Assembly (NCBI RefSeq): GCF_000196355.1
Contig: NC_007614.1
Location: forward strand, 1,620,001-1,652,000
Length of the DNA: 32,000 nt
Direction of reading: 5' to 3'
DNA from: Nitrosospira multiformis ATCC 25196
GTDB taxonomy: Bacteria > Pseudomonadota > Gammaproteobacteria > Burkholderiales > Nitrosomonadaceae
A program made the position numbers and the translations under genes. Below, one piece after another: positions 3,843 to 31,998 of the stretch. The notes under the pieces are model-generated. The model searched no databases. It was given only the letters and a program-made list of their open reading frames with translations, and was not told the origin of the DNA. Positions within the stretch are counted from its first letter, which is position 1; every line of letters starts with the position of its first letter.

Positions 3843-4268
3843 ACGCTTCTCCTCTAGGCTGAAAACGAGCCTTCCAGCAGGCCCGCTGCAAGAACTCCGA
3901 AAAAACTTCTATTCCACTGCCTCGCCAGATTGCGCGAATCGTTTGTCCCTTTCGGCTTTTGAAACTTTGAAATGAGGCTGCCGGAATCATTGTAACCCAA
4001 GGTAGAGGAAGAACTTCTCCTGATGGGGGTTGACGGGGACGCGAATCCATCAATCCAGCAACCCGGCTAATTGCTTCCCCAGGACCGCAGACGGGCACAA
4101 ATATACTCCATCTTTGCAGGGCCGGGTGCGCTATCGACTATGGTATCCAGGGAGAGGATCGAGGTACTTTGACGGGGTGGATCAAGCGCCCGCCCTGTTT
4201 GTCATGAAATCCCGGACCATTTGCGACTTTGCGGGGAAGATAGCAATACCCCAAGCGATTCATATAGC

Positions 4269-4296
4269 TTGAAAAAGTCGAATTTTGTTATATCTT
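4269..4296 (+). promoter_or_regulatory. candidate sigma70-type promoter for the PEP-CTERM gene
   Basis: TTGAAA (4269-4274), 16-nt spacer, TATCTT (4291-4296), about 80 nt upstream of ATG 4379. Pattern match only. Confidence 0.3.
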
Positions 4297-4378
4297 AAAA
4301 GGTACCAGTGGAGGTAATACAGCGCCTTTGCCGGTTCAGATCTGGTTATCGCCGCAGCTTTCTTGAGGAGAGATAAAA

Positions 4379-4996: not shown

Positions 4997-5113
4997 AGTA
5001 GGGGAGGAGTGAAATAATGTGTCTTTTTACTCAATCGCGTGCGCCACCGTACAGAAAAACACAACGGTGACAGCTATAGTGACAGCTCGAAAATAACCAG
5101 AGGAGGTATCAAC

Positions 5114-5416
5114 ATGAGCTATCTGAAACCCGTTCTTACCGCAACGATGCTGGCGCTGGCGCTCGGACTTCCCGCTTGTAAATCCAAACAGGAAGCGGCG
5201 CGGGAACAATCACTGGAACAGAAGGCCGATACAAAGGAAGATAAGGCAGATGTGGTGCGCAAGGAAGGGGAAGCAACTGCGGACAGGATCGAAAGGCAAG
5301 ATCCTGGTATGGATTCCAGGAGCACGGATCGAGCCGCCGACGCTGCACGTGAATCCTCCGAGAATCGCGCCGACCAGTTGGAAGATGAAGCCGATCGCCT
5401 GCGCGAGCAGAAGTAA
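5114..5416 (+). CDS. probable small lipoprotein, charged/low-complexity (100 aa)
   Basis: ATG at 5114 preceded by AGGAGG (5101-5106). Signal peptide ending in the lipobox-like GLPAC. The remainder is rich in E/D/R/K/A. Confidence 0.6.
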   Translation: MSYLKPVLTATMLALALGLPACKSKQEAAREQSLEQKADTKEDKADVVRKEGEATADRIERQDPGMDSRSTDRAADAARESSENRADQLEDEADRLREQK

Positions 5417-5433
5417 TGGTTATAACGGTTGGT

Positions 5434-5467
5434 CCTGGTTAACGGCAATCAGCTGCGGTTAACCAGG
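5434..5467. terminator. stem-loop between convergent genes (possible bidirectional terminator)
   Basis: Perfect 10-bp stem CCTGGTTAAC (5434-5443) / GTTAACCAGG (5458-5467) with a 14-nt loop. A T5 run follows on the + strand a few nt downstream. It lies between the 5416 stop (+) and the 5469 stop (-). Confidence 0.45.
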
Positions 5468-5468
5468 G

Positions 5469-7325: not shown

Positions 7326-7852
7326 GGCTCCATGTATCTTGAAATCAATCATCAATCCTAGCGTGAGACTTATGGTTTTGCTGCCTTCACCCTTCTTCTC
7401 AGTCACGGGTGGTCCCCTTTTCATCATAGATTAGACTATGCGCGGAAGACCATTTTGCCCAGAGTTGTAGTACTAGGCCAAATGATGGCGGGTCATATAT
7501 CCCATACAAGCGATATTCGCATCTTTCGTTAAGCCAATCTCCTGATCTTGCCGAAGCGGCCCGGCTGAGCATCCGTCCGACCCCGAAGACAGGCCCTGTC
7601 GCTCAGGAAATGCTTGCCGCTCGTTCAGAGCTCCTTCGATCCTTCGAACAGATTCAGGATCAGGGCGGGAGATGAAGTGCCCAGGATGACAGCAACGAAG
7701 GGTTTAGAGAGAAGGAAAGAAGAGATCGAACGAGTGGAGAAATATACCCCCACTCCTCTTAGCCTCAAAAAAGCTGCAAGGAATGCTCGCTCTTCCATAG
7801 CCCTGGATCATTTTTGCTTGAGCAGTCTTGCGAGGGGACGGTATAACAGCCA

Positions 7853-8050
7853 TCAGACCCAGGAGCAATCAATCGTATCCTTAGCAATATTGGTCAAGTT
7901 TCCAGTATTTTTTATGTCACCATACTCTTTCACCGGACGATGAAGCCAACGAGGGTCGGGCTCGTGAAGACAGGGAAAACAAAACCAAGGCTGATAATCA
8001 GGACTGCCGCCAATCAAGCGCTGGATTTTAGAGCCATGGATAATTTTCAT
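7853..8050 (-). CDS. hypothetical protein (65 aa, weak call)
   Basis: ATG with a weak GGAA-type SD. No family recognised. It competes with the antisense ORF 7614..7943. Confidence 0.3.
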   Translation of the reverse strand: MKIIHGSKIQRLIGGSPDYQPWFCFPCLHEPDPRWLHRPVKEYGDIKNTGNLTNIAKDTIDCSWV

Positions 8051-8159
8051 GATTTTCTTTCCGTAAGAGATTATTTTTAGAGATTCGGGGCTCCGAATTT
8101 GATGAAAGCATGCCGAATCGGTATCTGACAGTGCCAGATTAAACCTTAACTCTAATAAT

Positions 8160-8187
8160 GAAGATGGACGTTTAAACGTCCATCTTC
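8160..8187 (-). terminator. perfect 28-nt palindrome (hairpin) downstream of 8212..9024
   Basis: GAAGATGGACGTTTAAACGTCCATCTTC forms 14-nt arms with no spacer. It sits 25 nt past the stop of the minus-strand gene. The flanking T-tract is only modest. Confidence 0.4.
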
Positions 8188-8211
8188 ATCTGGCGAGACC
8201 TTCGAGTTTAT

Positions 8212-9024
8212 TCAAAGAACAGGGATATATTCCGCGATACCTTCAAGGTTCACAGCCTCGTACGTGAGCTGGGCTCCAGGGTGATCTACGACAAAGCCAC
8301 GGCTGTGAATCAGGATGCCCATTGTCTTGAAGTTCTGCCGCAACTCTTCTCCCAGCTCAACCGGCGGCAGAATCAGGGCGAAATCCATAGAAGGTTCATC
8401 CGCAGCCCCGGACCTGAAATTTACTGAGACAAGCGTTCCCGCTACTGTTTGCTGCTGAGTAATTTGCGACCCGCGAAATACGAAATGGCCTTCCGGGCCG
8501 GTATATTCGAGGGAGGCCTCTTGTGGCTTTTCTTTCGCACCCAACGGACCCGATGCTTGAGGAAAAAAAACGACGCGTTTTACACTTTCCTGATCAACAA
8601 ATGTAAAACGACTGGGATTTCTCTTCGGGTGCTGGGAATTGCTCAGTTTGGGATTTCTCTCCGGGCGTTCGGAATTGCCCAAGCCGGGATTTCTCTCCGA
8701 GTGTTCGGAATTGTCCAGCAGTGCCTTTTTTGAATCGCGTTTGACGTGTATCCGAACCCCCTTGGCACCGGGAGGCAAGGGGTCCCAGAGGTGAACGACA
8801 CCGATAGGTGTAATTGCGTGTGTGGCGGGTTCTTGAGGTGGATCAGCGACAAAATCAAAATCATAAATGCCGTCGGGCGGCGGCTGAATGAAGGCAAAAG
8901 GTTCTAACCGCGGATTTTTCCAACCCTCGCCAGGTATATTCCCCGAGGCGGTGATTCGCAATTTTGGTGGATGATTTTCCAGAACAAATAGGTCAACATC
9001 AAGAACTTCCAGAACTTTTTCCAT
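8212..9024 (-). CDS. hypothetical protein with an internal 3 x 12-aa tandem repeat
   Basis: 270-aa ORF with a GGGGGA SD about 8 nt upstream of ATG. N-terminal conserved-looking domain (VLENHPPKLRITASGNIPGEGWKNPRLEPF...PPPDGIYDFDFVADPP). Central repeat NSEHSERNPGLG / NSERPERNPKLS / NSQHPKRNPSRF. Confidence 0.65.
   Translation of the reverse strand: MEKVLEVLDVDLFVLENHPPKLRITASGNIPGEGWKNPRLEPFAFIQPPPDGIYDFDFVADPPQEPATHAITPIGVVHLWDPLPPGAKGVRIHVKRDSKKALLDNSEHSERNPGLGNSERPERNPKLSNSQHPKRNPSRFTFVDQESVKRVVFFPQASGPLGAKEKPQEASLEYTGPEGHFVFRGSQITQQQTVAGTLVSVNFRSGAADEPSMDFALILPPVELGEELRQNFKTMGILIHSRGFVVDHPGAQLTYEAVNLEGIAEYIPVL
8614..8721 (-). repeat. 3 x 36-bp in-frame tandem repeat inside CDS 8212..9024
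   Basis: The motif GGGATTTCTCT recurs at 8614, 8650 and 8686, an exact 36-nt period. The units are about 75-85% identical by eye. Confidence 0.9.
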
Positions 9025-20248: not shown

Positions 20249-20255
20249 GCTAATA
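20249..20255. repeat. 7-bp target-site duplication (GCTAATA) of the left IS481 copy, outer copy
   Basis: GCTAATA lies immediately before TGTAGTAG at 20256. The same heptamer lies immediately after ...CTACTACA at 21478. Confidence 0.85.
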
Positions 20256-21478
20256 TGTAGTAGTCGCGATCCCATCAGACAGTTTCCCGATTTGACTGGT
20301 GCAGTTGTCAGATCAGATTCAACTGTTCAGTAATGTGATTTTATCGTTCCACACCTCCTTTCCGTCAATTAATGTTTGCATGGGTGTTCGCCCGCAGCAC
20401 ATCTTGCCCTGATGAGTGCGGTCGTGATTGTAGTAGTGCAGCCAGTCATCCAGGTCAATTTGCAACTCCTCGATTGATCGGTATATCTTGCGCCGGAACG
20501 CGACCTGGTAGAACTCTTGCAGGATCGTCTTGTGAAAGCGCTCACAGATGCCGTTGGTCTGCGGATGATTGGCTTTGGTGCGAGTATGTTCAATATCATT
20601 GAGCGCCAGATAGAGCTGATAATCGTGAGTCTCTGGCTTGCCGCAATATTCAGTGCCTCGGTCGGTCAGAATTCGGATCAGGCCCATGTCCTGTTCTGCA
20701 AAGAAGGGTAGTACCCGATCGTTGAGCAAATCCGCGCCTGTAATCGGCGTTTTGGTCGTATAGAGCTTGGCTGTGGCCCACTTGGAGTAGGTGTCGACGA
20801 AGGTCTGCTGATAAATACGACCCACGCCCTTGATCGTGCCCACATAGAAGGTATCCTGACTGCCAAGGTAGCCTGAATGGGCGGTTTCCACCTCCCCATG
20901 GGCGACATCGTCGTCCTGCTTCTTCTCCAGGGCACTAACCTGCGCTTCGGTCAGCACTTCTCCAGTCTGCGCGATATGACATTCCAGTGCCGCCAACCGC
21001 TTCTTGAATGATTCCAGGTCCCTGCGCAGCCAGACAGAGCGAACGCCTGAAGGAGAAATGAAGATGCCGCGTTTGCGTAACTCGTTGGAAACGCGCACTT
21101 GCCCGAATGCAGGCTGCTCAAGGGCAAATGCAGCTACCGCCATCTCGACTGCTTCTTCAACTCTATTCTTGGGATTGGGCTTCCTTCGATTGGCATCAAT
21201 CAGGGCATCGATACCACCATTTTCCATCGCTGACTGATACCGATAGAAGGTATCCCGGGAAAAGCCCATCACCTTGCAGGCACGCGATACATTGCCAAGC
21301 TCGGCTGCCAGATTAAGCAGCCCTACCTTGTGCTTAATAACATTTTGTTGAACACTACTCATGGGGTTACTCCTTTGCGCTTTCAGCGCTCAATTTGATA
21401 AAGATTCGCACCTCTATCAAACCGGGTAACCCCGCTTTTCGCAAGGCCCTACTGTCAGATTAAATCTGAACTACTACA
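20256..21478 (-). mobile_element. IS481-family insertion sequence, copy 1 (1223 bp)
   Basis: Ends TGTAGTAGT...ACTACTACA. Imperfect 28-bp terminal inverted repeats match at 21/28 positions by eye. Single DDE transposase ORF. Flanked by a 7-bp direct repeat. Confidence 0.9.
20319..21362 (-). CDS. IS481-family DDE transposase (347 aa)
   Basis: N-terminal HTH (GNVSRACKVMGFSRDTFYRY); integrase-core catalytic region (DTFYVG..., TDRGTEY, HPQTNGICERFHKT). Identical to the protein at 26989..28032. Confidence 0.92.
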   Translation of the reverse strand: MSSVQQNVIKHKVGLLNLAAELGNVSRACKVMGFSRDTFYRYQSAMENGGIDALIDANRRKPNPKNRVEEAVEMAVAAFALEQPAFGQVRVSNELRKRGIFISPSGVRSVWLRRDLESFKKRLAALECHIAQTGEVLTEAQVSALEKKQDDDVAHGEVETAHSGYLGSQDTFYVGTIKGVGRIYQQTFVDTYSKWATAKLYTTKTPITGADLLNDRVLPFFAEQDMGLIRILTDRGTEYCGKPETHDYQLYLALNDIEHTRTKANHPQTNGICERFHKTILQEFYQVAFRRKIYRSIEELQIDLDDWLHYYNHDRTHQGKMCCGRTPMQTLIDGKEVWNDKITLLNS

Positions 21479-21485
21479 GCTAATA
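21479..21485. repeat. 7-bp target-site duplication (GCTAATA) of the left IS481 copy, inner copy
   Basis: See 20249..20255. Confidence 0.85.
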
Positions 21486-21544
21486 TAACCGGTTTGCAAA
21501 CGGCAAGAACAGCCATATCATCATCCGCCTATCCCCTCAGTTTT

Positions 21545-22762
21545 ATGCAATCCGCTGCAAACGCCTGGCGCGATGTGCTGGCAAAGTCCGTGCTATTCTT
21601 TTTTGGGATAGCGCTCTGGTACAAGGGGTTGAGCTTTTATGCCTATTACCTTTTGCCCCTCGCCTGGACGATAGATGGAGGACTGGCCCGCGCTGGAGAA
21701 ACGGTCAGAGAGCCTCTGGCAATCGGCATGCTTCTGTTATGCTTCGTCCTCGCCCTTGGCATACTCTGGAGCGATCATCCTGATCTTGGATTCAAGGTCG
21801 GGCGAAGATATTTTGCCTTTCTCGTTTTTATCCCCTATCTAGGCCTCTTGAATAAGGAACGTCTACCTTGGGCAATCAGTGGAGCGCTCCTGGGTTATTT
21901 TGGCGCACTGCTTATCGGTTTATATCACTGGCTGGTAATGGGCGTACAAGGTATTCCGACTTTGGGGATGCCTTACACCAGTTTCTCTTCGACACTAGGA
22001 ATTGGAGTAATACTGTCTCTCTATATTATAAAAACAAGCAGAAATAATGGAATCCGACTGTTTTTGTGGTTTCTCTCTGCCTTTCTATTGTTCATTCAGT
22101 TTAATCAAGACGCCAGGGGCGCACTTTTAGCAACGCTTTTCTCATCGTTGCTTCTGCTGTTTTTGCTGTATAAAACAAAAACCAAAACCCTTCTGATCGT
22201 GATGACACTGGTGATCACAGTAATCACGTTGTTCGCATCCAATAGTACGAGTTTTCAAGAAAGATTAATGCGAGCGAAGAATGATATTCAGTTATCCTGG
22301 ACAGGAAAATATACAACCAGCTTGGGTTATCGCCTGGCCATGTGGGATGTCGGTCTCCATGGAATAGCCGAGCATCCCTTTGTCGGTCACGGCACGGGAA
22401 CGGCAGCAAGGTATTTCGAGAAAACCGTTGAGACGTATAAAGGGGGTATTTACCGGGATTTAACAGAATTTCACGACACTTATCATTATCACAATGACTG
22501 GATTGAGATCGGAATGCAGTTAGGACTGCTCGGGATGGCGACTTATGCTTTCTTTTTGTGGAGTTGGTATCAAACGCTAAAGAGACATCAACTGATAGTT
22601 CTTGCGGCGGCTTTACTCTGTTTTATTTTTCTGTCCGGCTTAACAGACACTCTGGTTTTTTTTCGACAAACTTTTTACTTGCTTCTTGTAATCACCGCTA
22701 TTGGTATTACCTCTCACAAAGCATCGGAGCGGCTGGACTCTACAAAATATATTACTTCTTGA
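21545..22762 (+). CDS. O-antigen ligase / Wzy_C-domain family polytopic membrane protein
   Basis: About 10 or more TM helices. RGALLATLFSSLLLL loop motif. GHGTGT...HYHNDWIEIGMQLGLLGM is typical of the WaaL/Wzy_C family. The ORF track starts at TTG 21494; the first ATG is at 21545. AT-rich relative to its surroundings. Confidence 0.8.
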   Translation: MQSAANAWRDVLAKSVLFFFGIALWYKGLSFYAYYLLPLAWTIDGGLARAGETVREPLAIGMLLLCFVLALGILWSDHPDLGFKVGRRYFAFLVFIPYLGLLNKERLPWAISGALLGYFGALLIGLYHWLVMGVQGIPTLGMPYTSFSSTLGIGVILSLYIIKTSRNNGIRLFLWFLSAFLLFIQFNQDARGALLATLFSSLLLLFLLYKTKTKTLLIVMTLVITVITLFASNSTSFQERLMRAKNDIQLSWTGKYTTSLGYRLAMWDVGLHGIAEHPFVGHGTGTAARYFEKTVETYKGGIYRDLTEFHDTYHYHNDWIEIGMQLGLLGMATYAFFLWSWYQTLKRHQLIVLAAALLCFIFLSGLTDTLVFFRQTFYLLLVITAIGITSHKASERLDSTKYITS

Positions 22763-22819
22763 GTGATACTGGCAGTTATTGGAGTGGATGATTCAACATT
22801 AAACTGGGATAAGAAGGAA

Positions 22820-23779
22820 ATGACAAGATCGCCGCTACTGTCTGTCGCATTAGCCAGCTTTAACGGAGAACGCTATATTGCTGAGCAGTTGGAAAGTATA
22901 GCTCAGCAGTATAGACTGCCTGATGAACTCGTCATTTCAGATGATGCCTCCACTGATAGCACTACTGATATCGTATTGAGATTTGCGCGGCATGCTCCAT
23001 TCCCCGTGCAACTCCTCGAGCACTCTGAGCGTCTTGGTTCCACACGTAACTTTCAAACGGCTATATGCGCTTGTAATGGTGACATAATCTTTTTATGTGA
23101 TCAGGACGATGTTTGGTATCCAAAAAAGATCGAACTTATTGAAGCAGGTTTTATCGATAACCATAACGCAGGTGCCGTTTTCACCGATGCAGATGTAGTT
23201 GGCGAAAACTTAAACCCATCTGAAATACGTCTTTGGGAAGCTTTTAAATTCAATTCAAAAGAACAAGCACAAATTAATGGTTGCGATGCACTGGAAGTTT
23301 TGTTCAAGCATCCGGTAGTAACAGGTGCGACAATGGCGTTTCGTTCCATTTATCGAGATCTTATTCTACCTTTACCCGATATGTGGCATGACGCTTGGAT
23401 TGCTCTACTTATTGGAGCAACTTCATCCCTAGTGGCATTGCCCACACCATTGATTGCCTATCGGCAGCATAACTCTAACCAACTTGGGATTCCTCGTAGA
23501 GGTAGGAATCGCGGCAAGACTTGCGCAGAAATATATGGACCACAAGTTCTCCATTATGAATTGACTCGAGCGCGTCTCCTCGCGCACGAGAAGCACTTTC
23601 CAGTTTCTAAGCAGAAACTAGAAAAAATGGAGGAATTGCTTATTTTTTTGCGGAATCGCGCTGCTTTACCTCAAAGTCCTTGGCAGAGATTACCGATAGC
23701 TCTAAATGAACTTGCTGCCTTCCGTTATCATCGATATGCATTCGGAACTATCAGTTTTTGGAAAGACTTGCTACGCTAA
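22820..23779 (+). CDS. family 2 glycosyltransferase (GT2)
   Basis: ATG with AAGGAA SD. LSVALASFNGERYIAEQLESI...LVISDDASTDST (GT-A nucleotide-binding), DQDDVWYPKK (DxD region). No C-terminal TM segment. Confidence 0.85.
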   Translation: MTRSPLLSVALASFNGERYIAEQLESIAQQYRLPDELVISDDASTDSTTDIVLRFARHAPFPVQLLEHSERLGSTRNFQTAICACNGDIIFLCDQDDVWYPKKIELIEAGFIDNHNAGAVFTDADVVGENLNPSEIRLWEAFKFNSKEQAQINGCDALEVLFKHPVVTGATMAFRSIYRDLILPLPDMWHDAWIALLIGATSSLVALPTPLIAYRQHNSNQLGIPRRGRNRGKTCAEIYGPQVLHYELTRARLLAHEKHFPVSKQKLEKMEELLIFLRNRAALPQSPWQRLPIALNELAAFRYHRYAFGTISFWKDLLR

Positions 23780-23920
23780 CCATTGCACACCTCTACAAAT
23801 CAAGAATCAATAGGTGTTGCACTGACCGGTTGAATGCGCCGGTACAGTTTATTGGGGTGGGTTTTCCCCCGATTTCACGGACACATCTAAAAAGGCTGAT
23901 AATGAGTCAGGAGGTGTGTC

Positions 23921-24208
23921 ATGGCAACGCGAAGGAAATATGCAGCGGAGTTCAAGCAGGAAGCGGTACAACTAGTTCGGTCTGGCAATGTGCCGGCAAG
24001 CCGGATCGCGCGTGATCTGGGGATTGATCCCAATATGCTGAGCCGGTGGTGCCGGGAAATGGGCTCGGTCGGTAATAAAGCCTTTCAGGGTCAGGGCAGG
24101 CCCCGTGATGAGGAGATGGCTGCGCTCAAACGTGAGCTGATCCAAGTTAGGAAGGAGCGTGATTTTTTAAAAGAAGCGGCGGCGTTATTCGCGAAAGCGT
24201 CGAAATGA
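23921..24208 (+). CDS. IS3-family transposase OrfA (HTH)
   Basis: MATRRKYAAEFKQEAVQLV... is a typical IS3/IS911 OrfA. SD GGAGG upstream. Confidence 0.9.
   Translation: MATRRKYAAEFKQEAVQLVRSGNVPASRIARDLGIDPNMLSRWCREMGSVGNKAFQGQGRPRDEEMAALKRELIQVRKERDFLKEAAALFAKASK
24163..24169 (+). other. candidate programmed -1 ribosomal frameshift heptamer T TTT TTA (followed by AAAAG)
   Basis: The X XXY YYZ heptamer is in the orfA zero frame (GAT TTT TTA AAA G). The -1 frame is open from here into orfB, with no stop between 24163 and 24205. Confidence 0.55.
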
Positions 24209-25047
24209 GATATCGCATGATCGAACGCTGCCGCGATGCCTTCCCCATTCGCCTGATGTGTCGTTGTCTGCATGTATCAACCAGCGGCTACTATGATTGG
24301 CGAGATCGCCCCTTGAGTCAGAGAGCGCATGATGACCGGCGTTTGCTGGAGCGCATCAGGAAGATTCATGATGGCAGCGATGGGGTGATGGGCAGTCCTC
24401 GAGTCTGGAAGGAGTTGCGTTATGAAGGCGAGGCGTGTGGGTTGAACCGCATAGCACGGCTGATGCGCCAGCAGAGGTTGTATGGCATCCCGCAGCGTAA
24501 ACGCTGGCACAAGAAGGTCTGTGGCCTTCGACCGGAGAATGTGCACAATCACTTGCAGCGGGACTTTACAGCAAGTGAGCCCAACAGCCGGTGGGTGACG
24601 GACATAACCTATGTGCGCACTCAGGAAAGCTGGCTTTATCTGTGCGTGGTCGTGGACCTGTACTCGGGCATCGTGGTCGGCTGGTCAATGAGCCACTGCC
24701 AGGATCCGCAACTGGTGCTGCAGGCCGTACTCATGGCGCTTTGGCAGCGTGAGGCAAAAACTCCCGTCATCCTGCACTCAGATCGCGGCTGTCAGTTTAC
24801 CAGTGACGAGTATCAACGCTTCCTGCAAGGACACAATCTGATTTGCAGCATGAGCGCTGTCGGTAGTTGTGCCGACAACGCGCTAGCAGAGAGCTTCTTT
24901 GGCTTGCTCAAGCGGGAGCGAGTATATCGTCGCCAGTATCGAACCCGGGCTGAGGCGCGCACAGATATCTTCGACTATATCGAGCGATTCCATAATCCGC
25001 GAAAACGGCGACAGCTGGAAATGCGTCAGAAGCAGGATTTAGCTTAA
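24205..25047 (+). CDS. IS3-family transposase OrfB (DDE integrase core), probably expressed as an OrfAB fusion
   Basis: WVTDITYV, LHSDRGCQFTS and ADNALAESFFGLLKRE (DDE triad context). It lies in the -1 frame relative to orfA. Confidence 0.9.
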   Translation: MRYRMIERCRDAFPIRLMCRCLHVSTSGYYDWRDRPLSQRAHDDRRLLERIRKIHDGSDGVMGSPRVWKELRYEGEACGLNRIARLMRQQRLYGIPQRKRWHKKVCGLRPENVHNHLQRDFTASEPNSRWVTDITYVRTQESWLYLCVVVDLYSGIVVGWSMSHCQDPQLVLQAVLMALWQREAKTPVILHSDRGCQFTSDEYQRFLQGHNLICSMSAVGSCADNALAESFFGLLKRERVYRRQYRTRAEARTDIFDYIERFHNPRKRRQLEMRQKQDLA

Positions 25048-25227
25048 CCAAACCGTCCGGAGAAATGGGGTAAAACCCGGTAGGGTCAGCTAGTCCAGGT
25101 TTCCACTTTAGAACGGTACTGATTCCAGAGTAGGGTGATCCTGCCCTGACGAAGCCACAGCAATATCAAAACTGTGCTAAACGTCTAGGGATTTTGAGTG
25201 TTTAAGGCATATCCTCAGCCATAACAC

Positions 25228-26802
25228 TTAGGGGGATCCAGAATGCTCTGATAAGATTGTCTTCTTGACTGTATATATTTGATAGATCAGGTTTGGCGAA
25301 TCGTGCAGCATCTCGAAGTTATCCGAGATATATTTATGAATTAGGGGATGTGTATTGCAGAAACGTAACTCCTCCCGCCCATCAAGAGGGAAATCGAATA
25401 TCAGGATAAAACCTGGATTTGTCACCTTGATTCGTTCAATTTCTAGCTGTTGAAAGCTTTCACTTCGCGAGAACAAGGCGTATATCTCCCACATAGGAGA
25501 CTTTCTTTCGAACAGGGGATAAGCTCCCGGCCAGAAAGGAGTTGTGATAAAACTTTGACCATCGGCTGCATACTTAGCAACTAATTTCTTTAATAGACTG
25601 ATCTCACTCGCTGTGCGAGCATCAACAGTCACTTTGGTGTCTGAAATTACGATGCTCACACATTGTTTGCTAGGCCGACATTGCCAGGCGGGATGAAAAT
25701 GCACCATCACTAATAAACTTGACCCACATAACAAAAGTGCCAACGGCCATTTGATCCTCGCTGGTTTTGTGGACAACAGCACTAGGCAACCGACTAATAG
25801 AGGAAAAATGCTTTTAGCAAGATGACTTACATCAGCTCGGGAATAAGCATAATGCGCATAGGGCAATGCCAAGAATGCAGTTGCAACCAAGGCCGATGGA
25901 ACAGCCCGCTTGTGAAATTTCTGGCGAGTAACCCATATGATAGCAAGTACGCCAAAAACGACTATAGCGATGAAAAACAAGCCAACCAGCACTCCACGAA
26001 TCGTCTTACCAATAGATACGGAGTCAAATTCCAAACGCCAAGGCCAAGGAACGGGTAGAGTAAGATTAGTTGCTTTAATTTCAAGGAAAAAGAGCAAGCT
26101 TTCCCAGAAGGCAGGAGCAAAGCCTGGTACCAGCAATATCATGAGAAGTATTGGAATATAACCAATTGCTACTCCTACTGCCCATAGCATAGCCACCTTG
26201 ATAAATTCAAGCTTATCCGCTTGCCTGATGGTCAGCCATATCATAACCCCAAAACTACCTAAGACACCGTATACCCCATGGTTACGGCCAAAAACAGCTA
26301 CAAAACCTACACATAAACCGGTGAAAAAGTAACGTCTCCTTGTAGGGTTCTGCACAAGAAAGGCCAATACTCCAATCAGCAGAATAGATAAAGAGACATC
26401 AAATAATTTGTGGCGTGGATACATCCAGACCACCAATGTGATGGCTGAAAGAAGTAAATAAGGAAAATTTAGCGTTCTTGTATTTCGAGCAATTAACAGT
26501 AGAGCGACGAATAATCCCATCACTTGAAAAACCGCCAAGCTACCCCTTAAGGCCACTATGCCATTGTCTCCCCACAGCCACATGAGTGTAGCGGACCAGT
26601 AGTAACGGCCGGGGTCGTAAGCCATGAAATCGCGGATAGGCACCTCACCTAGCATCACACGTTGAACCCCATACCAAAGAAAACCTTCATCCCATAGTGA
26701 GAATCCTTTATGCCCCTGCCATAGAAAAAGTGCGAGCACAACAAGACTGGAGAAAACCAGTATTTGAAAAACTGGAAGCTTATTTTCTTGGGGTTGATGC
26801 AT
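25228..26802 (-). CDS. polytopic membrane protein, GT-C-like (ArnT/PMT-type) putative glycosyltransferase
   Basis: 524 aa with about 12 or more hydrophobic helices in the first ~390 aa. An acidic first-loop motif (SLWDEGFLWYG...DFMAYDPGRYYW) resembles GT-C first-loop catalytic motifs. Soluble C-terminal ~130 aa. AT-rich. Family assignment is inference. Confidence 0.55.
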   Translation of the reverse strand: MHQPQENKLPVFQILVFSSLVVLALFLWQGHKGFSLWDEGFLWYGVQRVMLGEVPIRDFMAYDPGRYYWSATLMWLWGDNGIVALRGSLAVFQVMGLFVALLLIARNTRTLNFPYLLLSAITLVVWMYPRHKLFDVSLSILLIGVLAFLVQNPTRRRYFFTGLCVGFVAVFGRNHGVYGVLGSFGVMIWLTIRQADKLEFIKVAMLWAVGVAIGYIPILLMILLVPGFAPAFWESLLFFLEIKATNLTLPVPWPWRLEFDSVSIGKTIRGVLVGLFFIAIVVFGVLAIIWVTRQKFHKRAVPSALVATAFLALPYAHYAYSRADVSHLAKSIFPLLVGCLVLLSTKPARIKWPLALLLCGSSLLVMVHFHPAWQCRPSKQCVSIVISDTKVTVDARTASEISLLKKLVAKYAADGQSFITTPFWPGAYPLFERKSPMWEIYALFSRSESFQQLEIERIKVTNPGFILIFDFPLDGREELRFCNTHPLIHKYISDNFEMLHDSPNLIYQIYTVKKTILSEHSGSP

Positions 26803-26865
26803 TTGGTATTATTGTAACGATAATGTTCAGACGAGAGTATGCAGATTGTAATTCCAACCTATAGA

Positions 26866-26872
26866 CTTTATC
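26866..26872. repeat. target-site duplication of the right IS481 copy, inner copy (CTTTATC)
   Basis: CTTTATC lies immediately before TGTAGTAG at 26873, and ATTTATC immediately after ...CTACTACA at 28095 (6 of 7 identical). Confidence 0.7.
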
Positions 26873-28095
26873 TGTAGTAGTTCAGATTTAATCTGACAGT
26901 AGGGCCTTGCGAAAAGCGGGGTTACCCGGTTTGATAGAGGTGCGAATCTTTATCAAATTGAGCGCTGAAAGCGCAAAGGAGTAACCCCATGAGTAGTGTT
27001 CAACAAAATGTTATTAAGCACAAGGTAGGGCTGCTTAATCTGGCAGCCGAGCTTGGCAATGTATCGCGTGCCTGCAAGGTGATGGGCTTTTCCCGGGATA
27101 CCTTCTATCGGTATCAGTCAGCGATGGAAAATGGTGGTATCGATGCCCTGATTGATGCCAATCGAAGGAAGCCCAATCCCAAGAATAGAGTTGAAGAAGC
27201 AGTCGAGATGGCGGTAGCTGCATTTGCCCTTGAGCAGCCTGCATTCGGGCAAGTGCGCGTTTCCAACGAGTTACGCAAACGCGGCATCTTCATTTCTCCT
27301 TCAGGCGTTCGCTCTGTCTGGCTGCGCAGGGACCTGGAATCATTCAAGAAGCGGTTGGCGGCACTGGAATGTCATATCGCGCAGACTGGAGAAGTGCTGA
27401 CCGAAGCGCAGGTTAGTGCCCTGGAGAAGAAGCAGGACGACGATGTCGCCCATGGGGAGGTGGAAACCGCCCATTCAGGCTACCTTGGCAGTCAGGATAC
27501 CTTCTATGTGGGCACGATCAAGGGCGTGGGTCGTATTTATCAGCAGACCTTCGTCGACACCTACTCCAAGTGGGCCACAGCCAAGCTCTATACGACCAAA
27601 ACGCCGATTACAGGCGCGGATTTGCTCAACGATCGGGTACTACCCTTCTTTGCAGAACAGGACATGGGCCTGATCCGAATTCTGACCGACCGAGGCACTG
27701 AATATTGCGGCAAGCCAGAGACTCACGATTATCAGCTCTATCTGGCGCTCAATGATATTGAACATACTCGCACCAAAGCCAATCATCCGCAGACCAACGG
27801 CATCTGTGAGCGCTTTCACAAGACGATCCTGCAAGAGTTCTACCAGGTCGCGTTCCGGCGCAAGATATACCGATCAATCGAGGAGTTGCAAATTGACCTG
27901 GATGACTGGCTGCACTACTACAATCACGACCGCACTCATCAGGGCAAGATGTGCTGCGGGCGAACACCCATGCAAACATTAATTGACGGAAAGGAGGTGT
28001 GGAACGATAAAATCACATTACTGAACAGTTGAATCTGATCTGACAACTGCACCAGTCAAATCGGGAAACTGTCTGATGGGATCGCGACTACTACA
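26873..28095 (+). mobile_element. IS481-family insertion sequence, copy 2 (1223 bp), inverted relative to copy 1
   Basis: Both termini and both untranslated ends are base-for-base identical to the reverse complement of 20256..21478 where checked by eye. All six-frame ORFs of 60 aa or more are identical between the copies. Confidence 0.9.
26989..28032 (+). CDS. IS481-family DDE transposase (347 aa)
   Basis: 100% identical in amino-acid sequence to 20319..21362. Confidence 0.92.
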   Translation: MSSVQQNVIKHKVGLLNLAAELGNVSRACKVMGFSRDTFYRYQSAMENGGIDALIDANRRKPNPKNRVEEAVEMAVAAFALEQPAFGQVRVSNELRKRGIFISPSGVRSVWLRRDLESFKKRLAALECHIAQTGEVLTEAQVSALEKKQDDDVAHGEVETAHSGYLGSQDTFYVGTIKGVGRIYQQTFVDTYSKWATAKLYTTKTPITGADLLNDRVLPFFAEQDMGLIRILTDRGTEYCGKPETHDYQLYLALNDIEHTRTKANHPQTNGICERFHKTILQEFYQVAFRRKIYRSIEELQIDLDDWLHYYNHDRTHQGKMCCGRTPMQTLIDGKEVWNDKITLLNS

Positions 28096-28102
28096 ATTTA
28101 TC
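28096..28102. repeat. target-site duplication of the right IS481 copy, outer copy (ATTTATC)
   Basis: See 26866..26872. Confidence 0.7.
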
Positions 28103-28109
28103 GGAATCG

Positions 28110-28841
28110 TTATTGAGTTACTGGAGGAAGTATTGACGAAGGAAAAAACCTTCTTGCAAATTCCCTCAGATCGATTTCTGTCTCGCCGCCGTCCATGAAT
28201 CGGAATCTCCACACATTCTGTTGCTCGTCTGAATCCAGTTGCAAAGGATCATCTGCCAGCGCCAATCCGCCTTTTTCAAGGATTTCTCTGGCTTTCCTCG
28301 CGTTCCCTGCTAGCAGGGAGTTCAGAGCATCGGGAATTCCCCTTTTCTTCGCTGCATAGGCTTTGTTCATCCAAGGGGCCATTTCTTCCAGAAGGCCATA
28401 TTTCTTGTAAATGTTCGCCATGCGCGTCAGTTCATTCGCATCATCAAGCAGGTTGCCAGCCAACATGCGCTTGGCGATCATTTCATCCGAGGAAATTTGT
28501 GTTGCGGGTTTGCTCAGGCTGGAAAGGCCTCCAGTATCGGCTTCTGCGACAGCAGGTGTTTTCATCAACCCGGTGCTCAGGCCGGGCGTCGGGTAACCGG
28601 GGATAGATGGCTTCTGCTTATCCTGCTGCCATGGAATCGCTATCTCATCGTTGGCGGCACGGAGCCGCTCGCGTTTTTCCCTGTTGAAGTCTGCCTTGTC
28701 GATCCTCGCCCGATGCAACTCCGCCTCGCGCTCATCCGCCTTTTTCAACCGGTTGGCATCCCGCTGCCGGAGCTTCATATCCTGCCCCGTGCGTATACCC
28801 TGTGCAAGGCCGCCAGCAAACGCGCCCAGACTTTCAAGCAT
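28110..28841 (-). CDS. hypothetical phage-like protein (243 aa), last gene of the overlapping operon
   Basis: The start overlaps the upstream gene's end by 8 nt. Charged coiled-coil N-terminal part (KLRQRDANRLKKADEREAELHRARIDKADFNREKRERL). No family recognised. Confidence 0.6.
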   Translation of the reverse strand: MLESLGAFAGGLAQGIRTGQDMKLRQRDANRLKKADEREAELHRARIDKADFNREKRERLRAANDEIAIPWQQDKQKPSIPGYPTPGLSTGLMKTPAVAEADTGGLSSLSKPATQISSDEMIAKRMLAGNLLDDANELTRMANIYKKYGLLEEMAPWMNKAYAAKKRGIPDALNSLLAGNARKAREILEKGGLALADDPLQLDSDEQQNVWRFRFMDGGETEIDLREFARRFFPSSILPPVTQ

Positions 28842-29958
28842 GGTCCCCCTCCCTGTTGTGTTTATTCACTGTCGCCTTGCGCTTCATCAACCCTGAGGCG
28901 ACATTGAGCCGGTGAATGAAATCCTCCCCTACAAGTTCCACCGCTTTTCTGTTGAGTACCGCTTCGCCATTGGATAACCGGATAGGCTGCACGCCTTCAA
29001 TTGAAGCCGGGATGGAATCGCTGGTGCCGGTACCGGGACCTCGTACTATGCCACTGTTCCCATAGCCATCGCGCTTCAATGTGGATAAACCATAGGCATT
29101 GTAGTTCCTGATGACCCCGCCCGTCCGCAGGCCTGGGGTTCTCATCAGGTAAGCTCCGCCCAGGGTGCCGACCAGATTGCCTAACCCGCTGAGTCCTCCC
29201 GCTTTATTCTGCTGCTGTTGCTGCCATGCATTCAGTTGGCCCTGATATTGGTTCAGCATCAGGTTGCCGGAGGAGCTATTCGCACCAAGGGCGCCGTCAT
29301 ACCAGTGTTGCGCCGCATTCATGCCGGCGGTATGCAGCCCTGCTTTCGTTGCCAGGTTGTCAGTGGCGGCGTTACCTGCATTGAGCGCTGCCGCATCGGC
29401 AGCTATTCCCATGGTGGGCATATTACGCCCAAATTGGGCCACGCCCTGCCGCATGGCCATGCCCTGCAATTCTGTCTCGCGTCGGGCCTTATTCATTGCT
29501 CCCGCCGTGTCTTTGGCAAGCCCAAGGCTGATCTCGTGGGTCAGGCCTTGAAACTTGCCTGAATTAGGATTTACTCCCATGCGTCCCATCGTCCGTTGGC
29601 TCGAATCCAGGGCGCTCTCATAACTTTTTGCGATATCCGCTCCTGCCTCGGCCGCCATCTGCTCTTTACGCTCAAGCGAATCGAACTCGTTGGCTTCCCT
29701 CACCATGCGCTCTTCTATCGGCGCAAACAGGTTGCGGTATGCCTGCCATTGCGATTCGGCCCTCGCCGCATTGGCTTCGCCTGAGGCAATCTGCTGATCT
29801 ACAATCTTCTGGATCAGGGGGTCTTGTACCCTGGCTCTGTCCTTCTCCCATTCGAGCTGTTGCTTTGCCACATCCAGTTGCTGCTGGGCGATATCGGCCT
29901 GTTGTTTTGCCGCCTGCCCGATGAGCGGATCCGGTCTTGGTGGCTTCGAACTACACAT
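28834..29958 (-). CDS. phage virion-associated-like protein (coiled-coil N-terminus, Gly/Gln/Asn-rich middle, conserved C-terminal GPGTGTSDSIPA...LSNGEAVL motif)
   Basis: ATG at 29958 with GGAG 7 nt upstream; the track's TTG at 29964 is an alternative. It overlaps the GNAT stop by 8 nt. The composition and C-terminal motif resemble phage internal/tail-associated proteins from my recollection, not verified. Confidence 0.6.
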   Translation of the reverse strand: MCSSKPPRPDPLIGQAAKQQADIAQQQLDVAKQQLEWEKDRARVQDPLIQKIVDQQIASGEANAARAESQWQAYRNLFAPIEERMVREANEFDSLERKEQMAAEAGADIAKSYESALDSSQRTMGRMGVNPNSGKFQGLTHEISLGLAKDTAGAMNKARRETELQGMAMRQGVAQFGRNMPTMGIAADAAALNAGNAATDNLATKAGLHTAGMNAAQHWYDGALGANSSSGNLMLNQYQGQLNAWQQQQQNKAGGLSGLGNLVGTLGGAYLMRTPGLRTGGVIRNYNAYGLSTLKRDGYGNSGIVRGPGTGTSDSIPASIEGVQPIRLSNGEAVLNRKAVELVGEDFIHRLNVASGLMKRKATVNKHNREGDHA

Positions 29959-30565
29959 TTTCAATCTCCAGTATTTTGGTCAATCCATTTTCTACGTGCC
30001 TGTAGCCGAGCAATCTGAAAAACCGTGCGGCCTTATTAACTGTCTTTACGGTAATGTTGATTTCCCGGACGCCTAGCAATTTCATGGCATTCTCGACATA
30101 CCTTACAAAACGCTTGGCAGTAGTGCCGCGTCGCGCCTCGGGCAAAAGATACAGCGTGTCTTCCGTGGCAATAAGTGTCTGCGTGTGAGCGCTCTTATCC
30201 AGATACATGGCGCAATTGCCCAGCAACTTTCCTTCGCTTCTTACGGTAAAAAGAAGGTAGCGGCCCGCCTGCTCATACCGGATAAAAGTCTCGTAATCCG
30301 GCTGGAACGGTAGCCGATGTCTGTGTCCTTCGGTTTCATTCCAGTGGGTGCGATGCAAATGCTTTATTTCTTCTGTAATGTCCTCAATACGCTCTACAGC
30401 GAATACTATGCGGCCGTTATATCGAGGCTTGATTTGGGCAATATCTCTCGATTGCGCAAGCGTTTCCATGCGGTAGGCGGCAACGCAGATATCCGCGGCC
30501 AGCTCAGATGTCAAGGTCAAGCCCATATTTCCCTTGAGCAGCGAAATCAGTTCAATATTCATCAT
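29951..30565 (-). CDS. GNAT-family N-acetyltransferase (204 aa)
   Basis: ATG at 30565 forms an ATGA overlap with the upstream stop. GNAT core: LYLLPEARRGTTAKRFVRYVENAMKLLGVREINITVKTVNKAARFFRLLGYRHV (acetyl-CoA-binding motif A region and following helix/strand). Confidence 0.75.
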   Translation of the reverse strand: MMNIELISLLKGNMGLTLTSELAADICVAAYRMETLAQSRDIAQIKPRYNGRIVFAVERIEDITEEIKHLHRTHWNETEGHRHRLPFQPDYETFIRYEQAGRYLLFTVRSEGKLLGNCAMYLDKSAHTQTLIATEDTLYLLPEARRGTTAKRFVRYVENAMKLLGVREINITVKTVNKAARFFRLLGYRHVENGLTKILEIENV

Positions 30566-31998
30566 CCATCCATACGTGAAATAAGCTGTTCGAGAGAATC
30601 GCGAACAGAATTTATGTACGCATACAATGCCTCGCATTCAGCCTGGGTGGGGGGAGCGGAGAATGTAAGCGCACGAAAGGCGGGAAGCGCTATTCGGTTT
30701 CCGCGTCGTCCGGTCAGTATCTCAAGCATGGTTTTGAGCCATGGAGGTGTTCCGACCGGAATGCCAGGCTTCTTGATATAGGTTGCTTCAGCAGGTTGGC
30801 TGAAAAGCGCGGATTCAATCACAACCCCGTCACTTATCGCTTCTGCGCTTGCTTTATTGATTTGGATGCAAAAAGTGGCGGAAAGAATGTGTATCTGGGT
30901 AATTACGCCCGTTCCGCCAGCATTGGCTTGCATGGAGGGCGTCCCGACAAGCGTGCCACTGCCGATGGATATGGGGAGGGCATCGCCTGCGTTAGATTGC
31001 GCCAAGCCTGCTTCAATCAGGATATGAGTTTGCGTGATTGCGCCGCCTGGCAATATCTTCCCCTGGGCCAATGCGCCCATGCTGAGCATGTGCGCCTGAC
31101 TTACTTTCCCCGTGCTCAAGGTTCTGGCCGGCGCAACCAGGGCGCCCGCCAGGGCAATACCTCTGGTAACGCCGGCAGCGCTACCCAGGTTGGATTGAGC
31201 GAGGGAAGCGCCCGCAAGAATTTGATCCTGCTCGATCTTGCCCGTACTGGCGCCACCTGCCTGTGTTAATCCCGCAACAGCGAGCGTGTGATGTTGAGCA
31301 ATTTCTCCGGTGCTGCCCCTATTTGCCTGTATTGCAGCTACACCGCTTAATCCGGGTCCTGTATCAGCAGGCCACAGCTTTCTTGCAGATGCCTTGAATA
31401 GCTGCCATGGATTTTCATGAAAAGCCCGTGACTCAGCCGCTCCCCAGACTGAATCGGCAAAGCCGGCTATCAGTATCGTGCCGTCAAATTCCCATAGATT
31501 CCCACCGACGTACCGTCCAAGGTTGAAATTCTTGTTCCCCGCTCCCCAGGCTACCGGGGAACTTGTCCAGGTCAACCCGGCCTCTTTCCCATCGAGAAAA
31601 ACTTTGCACGTCGCTGCCGTACCCCCCGATACGAAAACGATACTCCGGCTTTTTGTGTTGAACCATGAAGAAAGGGTGCCGGAACTGGCGCCATTGGAAC
31701 CGATAGCTACTCTTAAGTCTGGATAAACCTGGTATGCGAAAGCATTGGGAGAAGAAGCCCCGAAGGGGCAGTGACCATAAGTATCGGGCCCACCCACAGT
31801 GGGGCACCACATAAAGAAGGTGCCGACATTGCCGGTCAGTTCCGGATAGCCGGTATAGGCGTAATAGTCATCGGCCCCATCAAACGAAAACACCTTGCCA
31901 TTTTGTGCTGGAACAATTGACGCATTGCCGCCCGCTGCCCAGCTTCGCCCGGTAACCAGATCGACCGGCCCCGCGGCAGGATTCCATAATATCCGCAT
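30562..31998 (-). CDS. LamG/ConA-like lectin-domain protein with repeat-rich C-terminal half (putative phage host-recognition / fibre protein)
   Basis: N-terminal ~200 aa match the Laminin_G_3 pattern (VFSFDGADDYYAYTGYPEL...GTFFMWCPT...VFLDGKE...NFNLGRY...FDGTILIAGFADSVW). Eight 22-aa repeats follow. The ATG at 31998 is 2 nt from the window edge, so the true start may lie outside the window. Confidence 0.7.
   Translation of the reverse strand: MRILWNPAAGPVDLVTGRSWAAGGNASIVPAQNGKVFSFDGADDYYAYTGYPELTGNVGTFFMWCPTVGGPDTYGHCPFGASSPNAFAYQVYPDLRVAIGSNGASSGTLSSWFNTKSRSIVFVSGGTAATCKVFLDGKEAGLTWTSSPVAWGAGNKNFNLGRYVGGNLWEFDGTILIAGFADSVWGAAESRAFHENPWQLFKASARKLWPADTGPGLSGVAAIQANRGSTGEIAQHHTLAVAGLTQAGGASTGKIEQDQILAGASLAQSNLGSAAGVTRGIALAGALVAPARTLSTGKVSQAHMLSMGALAQGKILPGGAITQTHILIEAGLAQSNAGDALPISIGSGTLVGTPSMQANAGGTGVITQIHILSATFCIQINKASAEAISDGVVIESALFSQPAEATYIKKPGIPVGTPPWLKTMLEILTGRRGNRIALPAFRALTFSAPPTQAECEALYAYINSVRDSLEQLISRMDG
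30820..31350 (-). repeat. eight tandem ~22-aa (66-nt) degenerate repeats within CDS 30562..31998
   Basis: Residues 217-393 parse as LSGVAAIQANRGSTGEIAQHHT / LAVAGLTQAGGASTGKIEQDQI / LAGASLAQSNLGSAAGVTRGIA / LAGALVAPARTLSTGKVSQAHM / LSMGALAQGKILPGGAITQTHI / LIEAGLAQSNAGDALPISIGSGT / LVGTPSMQANAGGTGVITQIHI / LSATFCIQINKASAEAISDGVV. Confidence 0.8.

What the first reader, a model, noticed from the sequence alone, without database searches (positions are those of the whole stretch)
20249..28102. Two identical, inverted IS481-family copies bracket a 5.4-kb cassette, yet each carries its own target duplication
Copies at 20256-21478 (-) and 26873-28095 (+) are each 1223 bp. They are identical wherever I compared them: both termini, both UTR-like ends and every six-frame ORF.

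The architecture looks like a composite transposon. However, copy 1 is flanked by a perfect 7-bp direct repeat (GCTAATA) and copy 2 by CTTTATC/ATTTATC. Two independent simple insertions explain that best.

Three consequences follow:
- The intervening segment has undergone no net inversion since insertion, because inversion by recombination between the copies would swap the flanks.
- The 1.2-kb perfect inverted repeats are nevertheless an ideal substrate for a reversible inversion switch.
- Both copies sit in the 5' regions of the outermost cassette genes, 66 nt (or 16 nt for the TTG start) upstream of the Wzy_C-like gene and 70 nt upstream of the GT-C-like gene. In both cases the transposase is transcribed away from the cassette.

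This symmetric placement could silence both transcription units or replace their promoters. Outward or hybrid promoters are documented for IS481-family elements.
Basis: partly seen in the sequence, partly recalled or inferred. Interest (0 to 1): 0.62.

Follow-up and report, generated by a model that had tools for sequence, protein, structure and literature searches.

The report
Two independent IS481 insertions flanking glycan genes
Two identical copies of an active jumping gene landed separately, not as one unit, in the spacers on either side of a small sugar-coat gene cluster in a Nitrosospira soil nitrifier; this is ordinary insertion-sequence behaviour, and any effect on gene switching is untested.

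Summary
The copies at 20256-21478 (-) and 26873-28095 (+) are 1223 bp each and 100% identical. Each encodes one intact 347-aa IS481-family transposase.

The genome is a Nitrosospira, with replicon sizes that fit N. multiformis ATCC 25196 from memory. It holds six copies, and all six carry a 7-bp target duplication.

Sister species carry the same low-GC cassette (Wzy_C-like, GT2, GT-C-fold) at the same locus and in the same orientation, without either IS. Their empty sites read ...TTATAGGCTAATATAGCCGG... and ...TATAGACTTTTATCGGAATCG.... So these were two independent simple insertions. The cassette was not delivered as a composite transposon, and it has not undergone a net inversion.

Four of the six copies sit in two tight pairs (P about 0.0015 under random placement), which points to local hopping. 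The other pair flanks an intact lon gene.

Both left IS ends (IRL) face co-oriented cassette genes. This is the geometry in which Bordetella IS481 Pout activates neighbours, but no convincing outward promoter was found here.

One correction: the TTG start at 21494 is not conserved, whereas ATG 21545 is.

The scan has noted similar IS481-family insertions with 7-bp duplications in other genomes. The finding is ordinary and of low interest.

The parts
20249..20255 (.). Target-site duplication of copy 1, outer copy (GCTAATA)
   Evidence: A single GCTAATA is present at the empty site in G012, G014 and G007 and in G020.
20256..21478 (-). IS481-family element, copy 1 (1223 bp). IRR lies at 20256 and IRL at 21478. 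Terminal inverted repeats are 28 nt (75% match) and begin TGTAGTAG.
20319..21362 (-). Transposase of copy 1: 347 aa, one ORF, with HTH and rve domains
   Evidence: Pfam HTH_29 and rve/rve_3. NCBIfam NF033577 IS481 family, 274.7 bits against a cut-off of 224.
21479..21485 (.). Target-site duplication of copy 1, inner copy (GCTAATA)
21545..22762 (+). Wzy_C-like (O-antigen ligase/polymerase family) membrane protein, 405 aa from the conserved ATG
   Evidence: Pfam PF04932, E=2.4e-21. Start conservation. Called as 405 aa in independent assemblies.
22763..23779 (+). Family-2 glycosyltransferase. The start is uncertain: 338 aa from GTG here, called as 331 or 319 aa elsewhere.
   Evidence: Pfam PF00535, E=5.3e-22. 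Weak PHROG hit to GtrB-like O-antigen conversion, 1.4e-5. Gene calls.
23781..23857 (.). Left part of a 138-bp remnant of a third kind of IS (full ~1.24-kb copies lie elsewhere in the genome). It is absent from G014.
23858..25079 (+). IS3-family element (orfA 23921-24208, orfB 24205-25047), nested in the remnant between the convergent GT2 and GT-C-like genes. Two further copies exist in the genome.
   Evidence: Pfam and NCBIfam NF033516, 320 bits. Genome copies.
25080..25140 (.). Right part of the 138-bp IS remnant
25228..26802 (-). 524-aa polytopic membrane protein with a GT-C glycosyltransferase fold. The family is widespread, with members 59-91% identical.
   Evidence: No Pfam, NCBIfam or PDB sequence hit. 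AF2 model pLDDT 74.8. The 13 best Foldseek PDB hits are all GT-C enzymes (AftA, STT3, ALG12, DPY19, AglB, ArnT, PglB, ALG9, EmbB), prob 0.91-1.00 and TM 0.35-0.47. One source names a homologue as RgtA/B/C/D-like.
26866..26872 (.). Target-site duplication of copy 2, inner copy (CTTTATC)
26873..28095 (+). IS481-family element, copy 2 (1223 bp), identical to copy 1. IRL lies at 26873, facing the cassette.
26989..28032 (+). Transposase of copy 2 (347 aa)
28096..28102 (.). Target-site duplication of copy 2, outer copy (ATTTATC; 6 of 7 match to the inner copy)
28110..28841 (-). Last gene of a co-oriented, overlapping operon of phage origin. Without the IS, its stop codon would lie 77 nt upstream of the GT-C-like gene.
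   Evidence: ORF layout. The adjacent 376-aa product matches phrog_8003, virion structural protein, E=1e-94.

Best explanation
An active IS481-family insertion sequence of this Nitrosospira genome made two separate, recent insertions. They are most likely linked by short-range (local) hopping. The targets were the two A/T-rich intergenic spacers that bound a pre-existing low-GC glycan cassette (Wzy_C-like, GT2, GT-C-fold).

Shown:
- Each insertion made its own 7-bp duplication.
- The cassette was already at this locus, in this orientation, before the IS arrived.
- No coding sequence was cut.

Inferred:
- Copy 2 sits between the last gene of a co-oriented phage-derived operon and the GT-C-like gene, so it most likely uncouples that gene from read-through transcription (a polar effect).
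- Copy 1 splits the 213-nt divergent control region. It leaves only 66 nt of native DNA in front of the Wzy_C-like/GT2 pair.
- Expression of the outer cassette genes therefore now depends on promoters inside the retained 66 or 70 nt, or on transcription leaving the IS left end (IRL).
- The 1.2-kb perfect inverted repeats are a possible substrate for RecA-mediated inversion, but nothing indicates that this has happened or is used.
For: - The two copies are identical.
- IS481-family transposase above the curated cut-off.
- Six genomic copies, five of them identical, all with 7-bp duplications.
- The same ends and mostly 7-bp duplications in 15 related elements of other Betaproteobacteria.
- Empty sites at both positions in G012 and G014, and at site 1 in G007 and G020, with the cassette present and collinear.
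- Both inner junctions reproduced at 100% identity in an independent assembly and in Logan contigs of other runs.
- Two pairs within 7 kb among six copies: P(>=2 pairs) = 0.0015 in a simulation.
- Sites richer in A+T than the genome: 0.56 and 0.62 against 0.46.
- No ORF of 60 aa or more spans either emptied site.
- All three cassette ORFs are intact, and the GT-C-like product has the same length as in IS-free G014.
- The right-hand neighbour is of phage origin.
Against: - The site-2 duplication is 6 of 7, and relatives have one more T at the empty site. One extra small event is needed and is unexplained.
- The transcriptional consequences are inference only. Consensus promoter and terminator scans are at chance level: 13 found against 11.4 expected, and 12 against 9.6.
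- A 9-of-12 promoter-like site (TTGCAA-16-TATCAT) remains between copy 1 and ATG 21545. The Wzy_C-like gene may therefore be unaffected, although the -10 box is not conserved in three of the four relatives aligned.
- Identity of the copies could in principle also be maintained by gene conversion.
Confidence: 0.88

Rival explanations
1. The IS-cassette-IS unit is a composite transposon that brought the low-GC glycan cassette into this locus.
For: Two identical IS copies bracket a compositionally foreign 5.4-kb segment (GC 0.42-0.45 against 0.54).
Against: The outer flanks GCTAATA and ATTTATC do not match, while each copy has its own duplication. G012 and G014 carry the same cassette at the same locus with both sites empty. 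G007 has empty site 1 with a variant cassette.
Confidence: 0.02
2. The pair acts as a reversible inversion switch. Recombination between the 1.2-kb inverted copies flips the cassette and changes which of the two convergent units lies downstream of the phage-derived operon or of other outside transcription.
For: Perfect 1223-bp inverted repeats lie 5.4 kb apart. IS481 copies are known to drive rearrangements in Bordetella pertussis by homologous recombination (PMC6161684).
Against: The assembled orientation is the ancestral one. No read data could be examined. Inversion would leave every junction sequence unchanged, and an IS would still lie between the cassette and outside promoters, so a regulatory pay-off is not evident. 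No site-specific recombinase lies at the locus.
Confidence: 0.05
3. The insertions replace promoters. Outward transcription from the IS left end (a Pout or a hybrid promoter) now drives the Wzy_C-like/GT2 pair and/or the GT-C-like gene, and the arrangement is kept by selection.
For: At both copies IRL faces a co-oriented gene 66-70 nt away. In B. pertussis, IS481 Pout lies near IRL and extends into co-oriented flanking genes at 70 IS elements (66 of them IS481), including katA and bteA (PMC6161684). The IRL-proximal 116 nt is highly conserved among 16 related elements.
Against: The standard scan finds no outward promoter in the IS ends. A relaxed scan gives only 8-of-12 candidates, TTCGCA-16-TTAAAT inside the IS and one weak hybrid at each site. 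IRL-inward orientation at both sites has a 1-in-4 chance expectation. The second tight pair, around lon, shows a different geometry, so pairing itself needs no selection.
Confidence: 0.12

Closest known systems
IS481 of Bordetella pertussis (IS481 family)
   Same: Single-ORF DDE transposase with an N-terminal HTH and an rve core. About 1.0-1.3 kb long, with ends starting TGT. Short duplication of an A/T-containing target with a central TAG-like core (here xTTTAGC, xATTAGx; for IS481, NCTAGN from memory). Multiple identical copies usable for homologous rearrangement. Insertion in 5' regions of genes, with the left end facing them.
   Different: 7-bp rather than 6-bp duplication. Only 6 copies, against more than 230. 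No outward promoter has been shown for this element. Different host (a soil ammonia oxidiser).
Composite (compound) transposons such as Tn10 and Tn5
   Same: Two copies of one IS in inverted orientation bracket passenger genes.
   Different: No shared outer duplication. Each IS has its own duplication. The passenger segment is ancestral at the locus in IS-free relatives. This is at most a potential composite, not a transposed one.
Phage-borne O-antigen modification (gtr-type, serotype-conversion) cassettes at prophage ends
   Same: A low-GC cassette with a GT2 enzyme and a polytopic GT-C-fold transferase lies directly downstream of, and co-oriented with, the last virion gene of a phage-derived block. 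The cassette varies between species.
   Different: No GtrA flippase was recognised. A Wzy_C-like gene is present. The GtrB assignment is weak (PHROG E=1.4e-5). This concerns the cassette, not the IS pair, and was only lightly tested.

Membership tests
IS481 family insertion sequence | DDE (rve) transposase matching the family model above its curated cut-off | tested here: met
   NF033577, 274.7 bits against a cut-off of 224, E=9.4e-82. The IS3 model scores only 90.9 against 160. Pfam HTH_29, rve and rve_3.
IS481 family insertion sequence | Single transposase ORF without a programmed frameshift (unlike IS3) | tested here: met
   One 347-aa ORF spans the element in all six copies.
IS481 family insertion sequence | Imperfect terminal inverted repeats beginning TGT, and element length of about 1-1.3 kb | tested here: met
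   TGTAGTAGT...ACTACTACA, 28-nt inverted repeats at 75% match, 1223 bp. The same ends occur in 15 relatives. The family criteria are recalled from ISfinder, not checked here.
IS481 family insertion sequence | Short direct target duplication of constant length | tested here: met
   7 bp at six of six copies in this genome, one of them 6 of 7. Also 7 bp at most related elements. A single copy is present at empty sites.
Composite transposon (as the origin of the cassette) | One target duplication shared by the two outer ends | tested here: not met
   The outer flanks are GCTAATA and ATTTATC.
Composite transposon (as the origin of the cassette) | Passenger DNA absent from the site where the IS pair is absent | tested here: not met
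   G012 and G014 have the cassette with both sites empty.
Invertible DNA switch | Inverted repeats bounding the segment | tested here: met
   1223-bp perfect inverted repeats.
Invertible DNA switch | Both orientations present in a population | not testable with these tools
Short-read contigs stop inside the IS and carry no linkage information.
IS-borne outward promoter (Pout or hybrid) activating a neighbour | IS end facing a co-oriented gene at short distance | tested here: met
   IRL lies 66 nt and 70 nt upstream of co-oriented starts.
IS-borne outward promoter (Pout or hybrid) activating a neighbour | A transcription start in or at the IS end reading outward | tested here: inconclusive
   Only 8-of-12 consensus matches, and none at the standard threshold. 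No RNA data were available.

The most novel reading that the evidence does not exclude
The symmetric, IRL-inward placement is not an accident of local hopping. Outward transcription from both IS left ends would have taken over expression of a phage-derived surface-glycan modification cassette. RecA-mediated flipping between the identical copies would add a slow on/off or either/or switch of surface glycan type in a soil nitrifier, for example under phage pressure.
Probability: 0.05. Interest if true: 0.5.

Novelty: new member of a known kind. Interest (0 to 1): 0.2.

Why it matters
The main value is for annotation. It shows that this IS is currently active in the genome: five identical copies, and one copy splitting a large ORF elsewhere. 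It shows that the element tends to hop locally, and that the glycan cassette next to the phage-derived block is ancestral rather than transposon-borne.

The pair is a ready-made substrate for inversion of the glycan genes. The pair around lon is a substrate for deletion. Both could cause stock-to-stock variation in a reference strain of ammonia oxidiser. If outward transcription from the IS were shown, this would be a non-pathogen example of the IS481 Pout effect.

Tried and rejected
No reads could be laid, so neither orientation nor transcripts could be tested.
- Megablast of the IS against plasmids found no match.
- Two metagenome pattern scans for the site-2 empty site were run to decide between 3 T and 4 T in closer relatives. 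The first gave 0 hits. The second gave 48 hits, none homologous to the locus.
- The genome paper (Norton et al. 2008) is not held.
- The 5-nt extension of the inverted repeat beyond the IS was considered as a sign of a longer element or a shared target. It was rejected, because the match is only partial and A/T-rich.
- A native sigma-70 promoter at site 1 was considered by eye: TTGAAG-17-TATAGG on the + strand, or TTGCAA-16-TATAAG on the - strand across the target. Neither passes the scan's rules. The whole spacer is about as conserved as the flanking genes, so conservation does not single them out.
- A terminator-like hairpin inside the IS, antisense to the transposase (20900-20916 on +, 27451-27435 on -), lies within a chance-level count of such sites.
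- Sequence searches for the 524-aa protein (Pfam, NCBIfam, PHROGs, PDB profile) gave nothing. Only the fold comparison placed it.
Full report
**Observation**

The two elements are real and exactly as described. Reverse-complementing 20256-21478 gives 26873-28095 with 0 mismatches over 1223 bp. The repeat finder extends the match to 1233 nt. The extra five bases on each side are only partly complementary A/T-rich flank and are not part of the element.

Each copy has 28-nt imperfect terminal inverted repeats starting TGTAGTAG. Each carries one 347-aa ORF with HTH_29 and rve/rve_3 domains. The ORF scores 274.7 bits on NCBIfam NF033577, 'IS481 family transposase', against a cut-off of 224.

The flanks are GCTAATA/GCTAATA for copy 1 and CTTTATC/ATTTATC for copy 2. 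The IS ends lie 66 nt from ATG 21545 and 70 nt from ATG 26802. Both transposase genes read away from the cassette.

**Genome context**

The window lies at C1:1620001-1652000 of a 3.23-Mb genome of four contigs, with chromosome GC 0.539. Relatives of the transposase and of the locus are named Nitrosospira and Nitrosomonas. The replicon sizes (3,184,243, 18,871, 17,036 and 14,159 bp) fit Nitrosospira multiformis ATCC 25196 from my memory of the published genome. I could not open that paper.

The chromosome has six copies of the element. Five are identical, and one has 3 mismatches and 1 gap. All six are flanked by a 7-bp duplication: GATTAGA, TATTAGC, C/ATTTATC, TCTGAGC, CTTTAGC and GTTCATT.

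Seventeen full-length related elements (73-86% nt identity) with the same ends occur in Nitrosospira, Nitrosomonas, Gallionellaceae, Burkholderiales and Chromobacterium. In the 15 whose flanks I inspected, most have 7-bp duplications. One of them is also 6 of 7 and one is 5 of 7. A 7-bp duplication is therefore the rule for this clade, and the heptamers here are not chance.

**Empty sites**

I joined the flanks in a script and searched 40 related genomes.

- Four sister species carry site 1 uninterrupted over all 800 nt: G012 at 91%, G007 at 90%, G014 at 88% and G020 at 87%.
- Two carry site 2 uninterrupted: G012 at 94% and G014 at 93%.

Base-level alignment gives ...CTTATAGGCTAATATAGCCGG... 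with a single GCTAATA at site 1. It gives ...TATAGACTTTTATCGGAATCG... at site 2.

In G012 and G014 the whole region is collinear with the window. The Wzy_C-like/GT2 block and the GT-C-like gene are present, in the same orientation, between the two empty sites. The cassette therefore pre-dates both insertions. It was not brought in by the IS pair, and its present orientation is the ancestral one.

One detail remains open. Relatives have four T at site 2, whereas the window has GACTTTATC[IS]ATTTATCGG. There are two possible accounts:
- The local ancestor had three T and one duplicate later changed C to A.
- A 6-bp duplication plus one stray base was made at integration.

Two metagenome scans found no closer empty site.

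**Not an assembly artefact**

An independent assembly (GCA_900108135.1) has a contig identical to window 21339-23952 and another identical to 24948-27012. Contigs from four Logan runs also match at 100% and run 25-29 nt into the IS left end. Each of these starts or ends inside the IS left end and, for the longer ones, inside the IS3 element. Both inner junctions are thus reproduced.

These contigs cannot report orientation. Inversion by recombination inside identical copies changes no junction sequence, only the linkage across the 1.2-kb IS.

**Why two copies sit so close**

Among the six copies there are two pairs within 7 kb. In 200,000 random placements, P(at least one pair) is 0.064 and P(at least two pairs) is 0.0015.

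The second pair (C1:2386789-2388011 and 2390786-2392007, both on the - strand) flanks an intact 814-aa Lon protease gene. Each of those copies again has its own duplication.

The sites are richer in A+T than the genome, at 0.56 and 0.62 within +/-25 bp against 0.46. Local hopping into A/T-rich spacers explains the arrangement without invoking selection. IRL-inward orientation at both sites has a 1-in-4 chance expectation.

The element also cuts genes.

**What is bracketed**

The segment 21479-26872 has GC 0.42-0.45. It holds:
- A Wzy_C-family protein (PF04932).
- A GT2 glycosyltransferase (PF00535; weak GtrB-like PHROG hit).
- A convergent 524-aa membrane protein with no sequence-family hit.

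For the 524-aa protein, the AF2 model has pLDDT 74.8. Its 13 best PDB fold hits are all GT-C enzymes: AftA, STT3, ALG12, DPY19, AglB, ArnT, PglB, ALG9 and EmbB. 'GT-C-like' is therefore supported at fold level, with modest TM-scores of 0.35-0.47.

Between the convergent genes lies an IS3-family element (23858-25079). It is nested in a 138-bp remnant of yet another IS. G014 has nothing in that spacer, and G012 has a different IS3-like remnant there. G007 keeps the Wzy_C gene (80% identity) but has a GT4 enzyme and an unknown 387-aa ORF in place of GT2 and GT-C. The locus is therefore a variable glycan cassette and a recurrent sink for IS elements.

To the right, the genes 28110-31998 (-) overlap one another. 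The 376-aa product matches phrog_8003, 'virion structural protein', at E=1e-94. This agrees with earlier notes of the scan that a phage-derived block ends here. Without copy 2, the last stop codon of that block would lie 77 nt upstream of the co-oriented GT-C-like gene.

**Likely consequences (inferred)**

Copy 2 most probably uncouples the GT-C-like gene from read-through of the upstream operon.

Copy 1 splits the 213-nt divergent spacer, with 147 nt left on the side of the 153-aa ORF and 66 nt on the Wzy_C side.

Comparative data fix the Wzy_C-like start at ATG 21545. The TTG at 21494 is followed by TAA in G012, G007 and G020.

Promoter and terminator scans are at chance level. A 9-of-12 site (TTGCAA-16-TATCAT) survives between copy 1 and the ATG, but its -10 box is not conserved in three of the four relatives aligned.

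In Bordetella pertussis, IS481 carries Pout near IRL, and its transcript runs into co-oriented neighbours (katA, bteA; 70 IS elements, 66 of them IS481) (PMC6161684). The geometry here is the same at both copies. However, I found only 8-of-12 outward candidates in the IS end. The IRL region is strongly conserved among relatives, which is compatible with, but does not show, regulatory signals.

**Verdict**

This is a correct and careful observation of an ordinary phenomenon. It is two independent, recent insertions of an active IS481-family element at the edges of a pre-existing glycan cassette. It is not a transposed composite, and it is not a demonstrated switch. The scan has recorded comparable IS481-family insertions with 7-bp duplications, and 'identical copies with different duplications', in other genomes. 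Interest is low. The inversion and promoter-capture ideas remain cheap to test experimentally.

Noticed in passing
G000 C1:2386789-2392007 (locus L101 3790-9008): A second tight pair of the same IS, in direct orientation, flanks an intact 814-aa Lon protease gene. Each copy has its own 7-bp duplication (TCTGAGC, GTTCATT). Recombination between the copies would delete lon. One of the two is the only diverged copy (3 mismatches, 1 gap).
   Followed up: partly
window 23781-25140: The IS3-family element (23858-25079) is nested in a 138-bp remnant (23781-23857 plus 25080-25140) of a further ~1.24-kb IS. Full copies of that IS lie at C1:2118008-2119269 and C1:1932014-1933252. G014 has an empty spacer here, and G012 has a different IS3-like remnant at the same spot. 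This convergent spacer collects IS elements in several species.
   Followed up: partly
window 26866-26872 / 28096-28102; L017, L018: The copy-2 duplication is 6 of 7 (C against A at the first base), and IS-free relatives have TTTTATC (four T) at the site. In related elements L048 and L022 the duplication is also imperfect. In L048, as here, the odd bases directly follow the right IS end; in L022 the mismatch is at the last position. Bases carried over from a donor flank at integration are one possibility.
   Followed up: partly
window 26873-26988 (IS left end), alignment: The 116-nt leader upstream of the transposase start is highly conserved across 16 related elements. It contains a conserved inverted hexamer pair TTGATA-N14-TATCAA, then a GC hairpin (GCGC-loop-GCGC) directly before the AGGAG ribosome-binding site. 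Its function was not examined.
   Followed up: no
window 25228-26802 (-): The 524-aa GT-C-fold protein belongs to a family without any Pfam or NCBIfam model. The 120 best hits listed are 59-91% identical, and sources name Pseudomonas, Polaromonas, Deltaproteobacteria, Dissulfurispiraceae and Pseudobdellovibrionaceae among them. The family has an invariant D38-E39-G40 motif near the first loop.
   Followed up: partly
L019 (G007) 4111-8754: The sister species G007 keeps the Wzy_C gene (80% identity) but carries a GT4 glycosyltransferase and an unknown 387-aa ORF instead of GT2 and GT-C, plus an IS3 fragment. The cassette next to the phage-derived block is swapped between species.
   Followed up: partly
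G000 C1:2509712-2510934: Another identical copy of the IS interrupts an 876-codon ORF 44 codons after its start (duplication CTTTAGC). This shows that the element also inactivates genes in this genome.
   Followed up: partly
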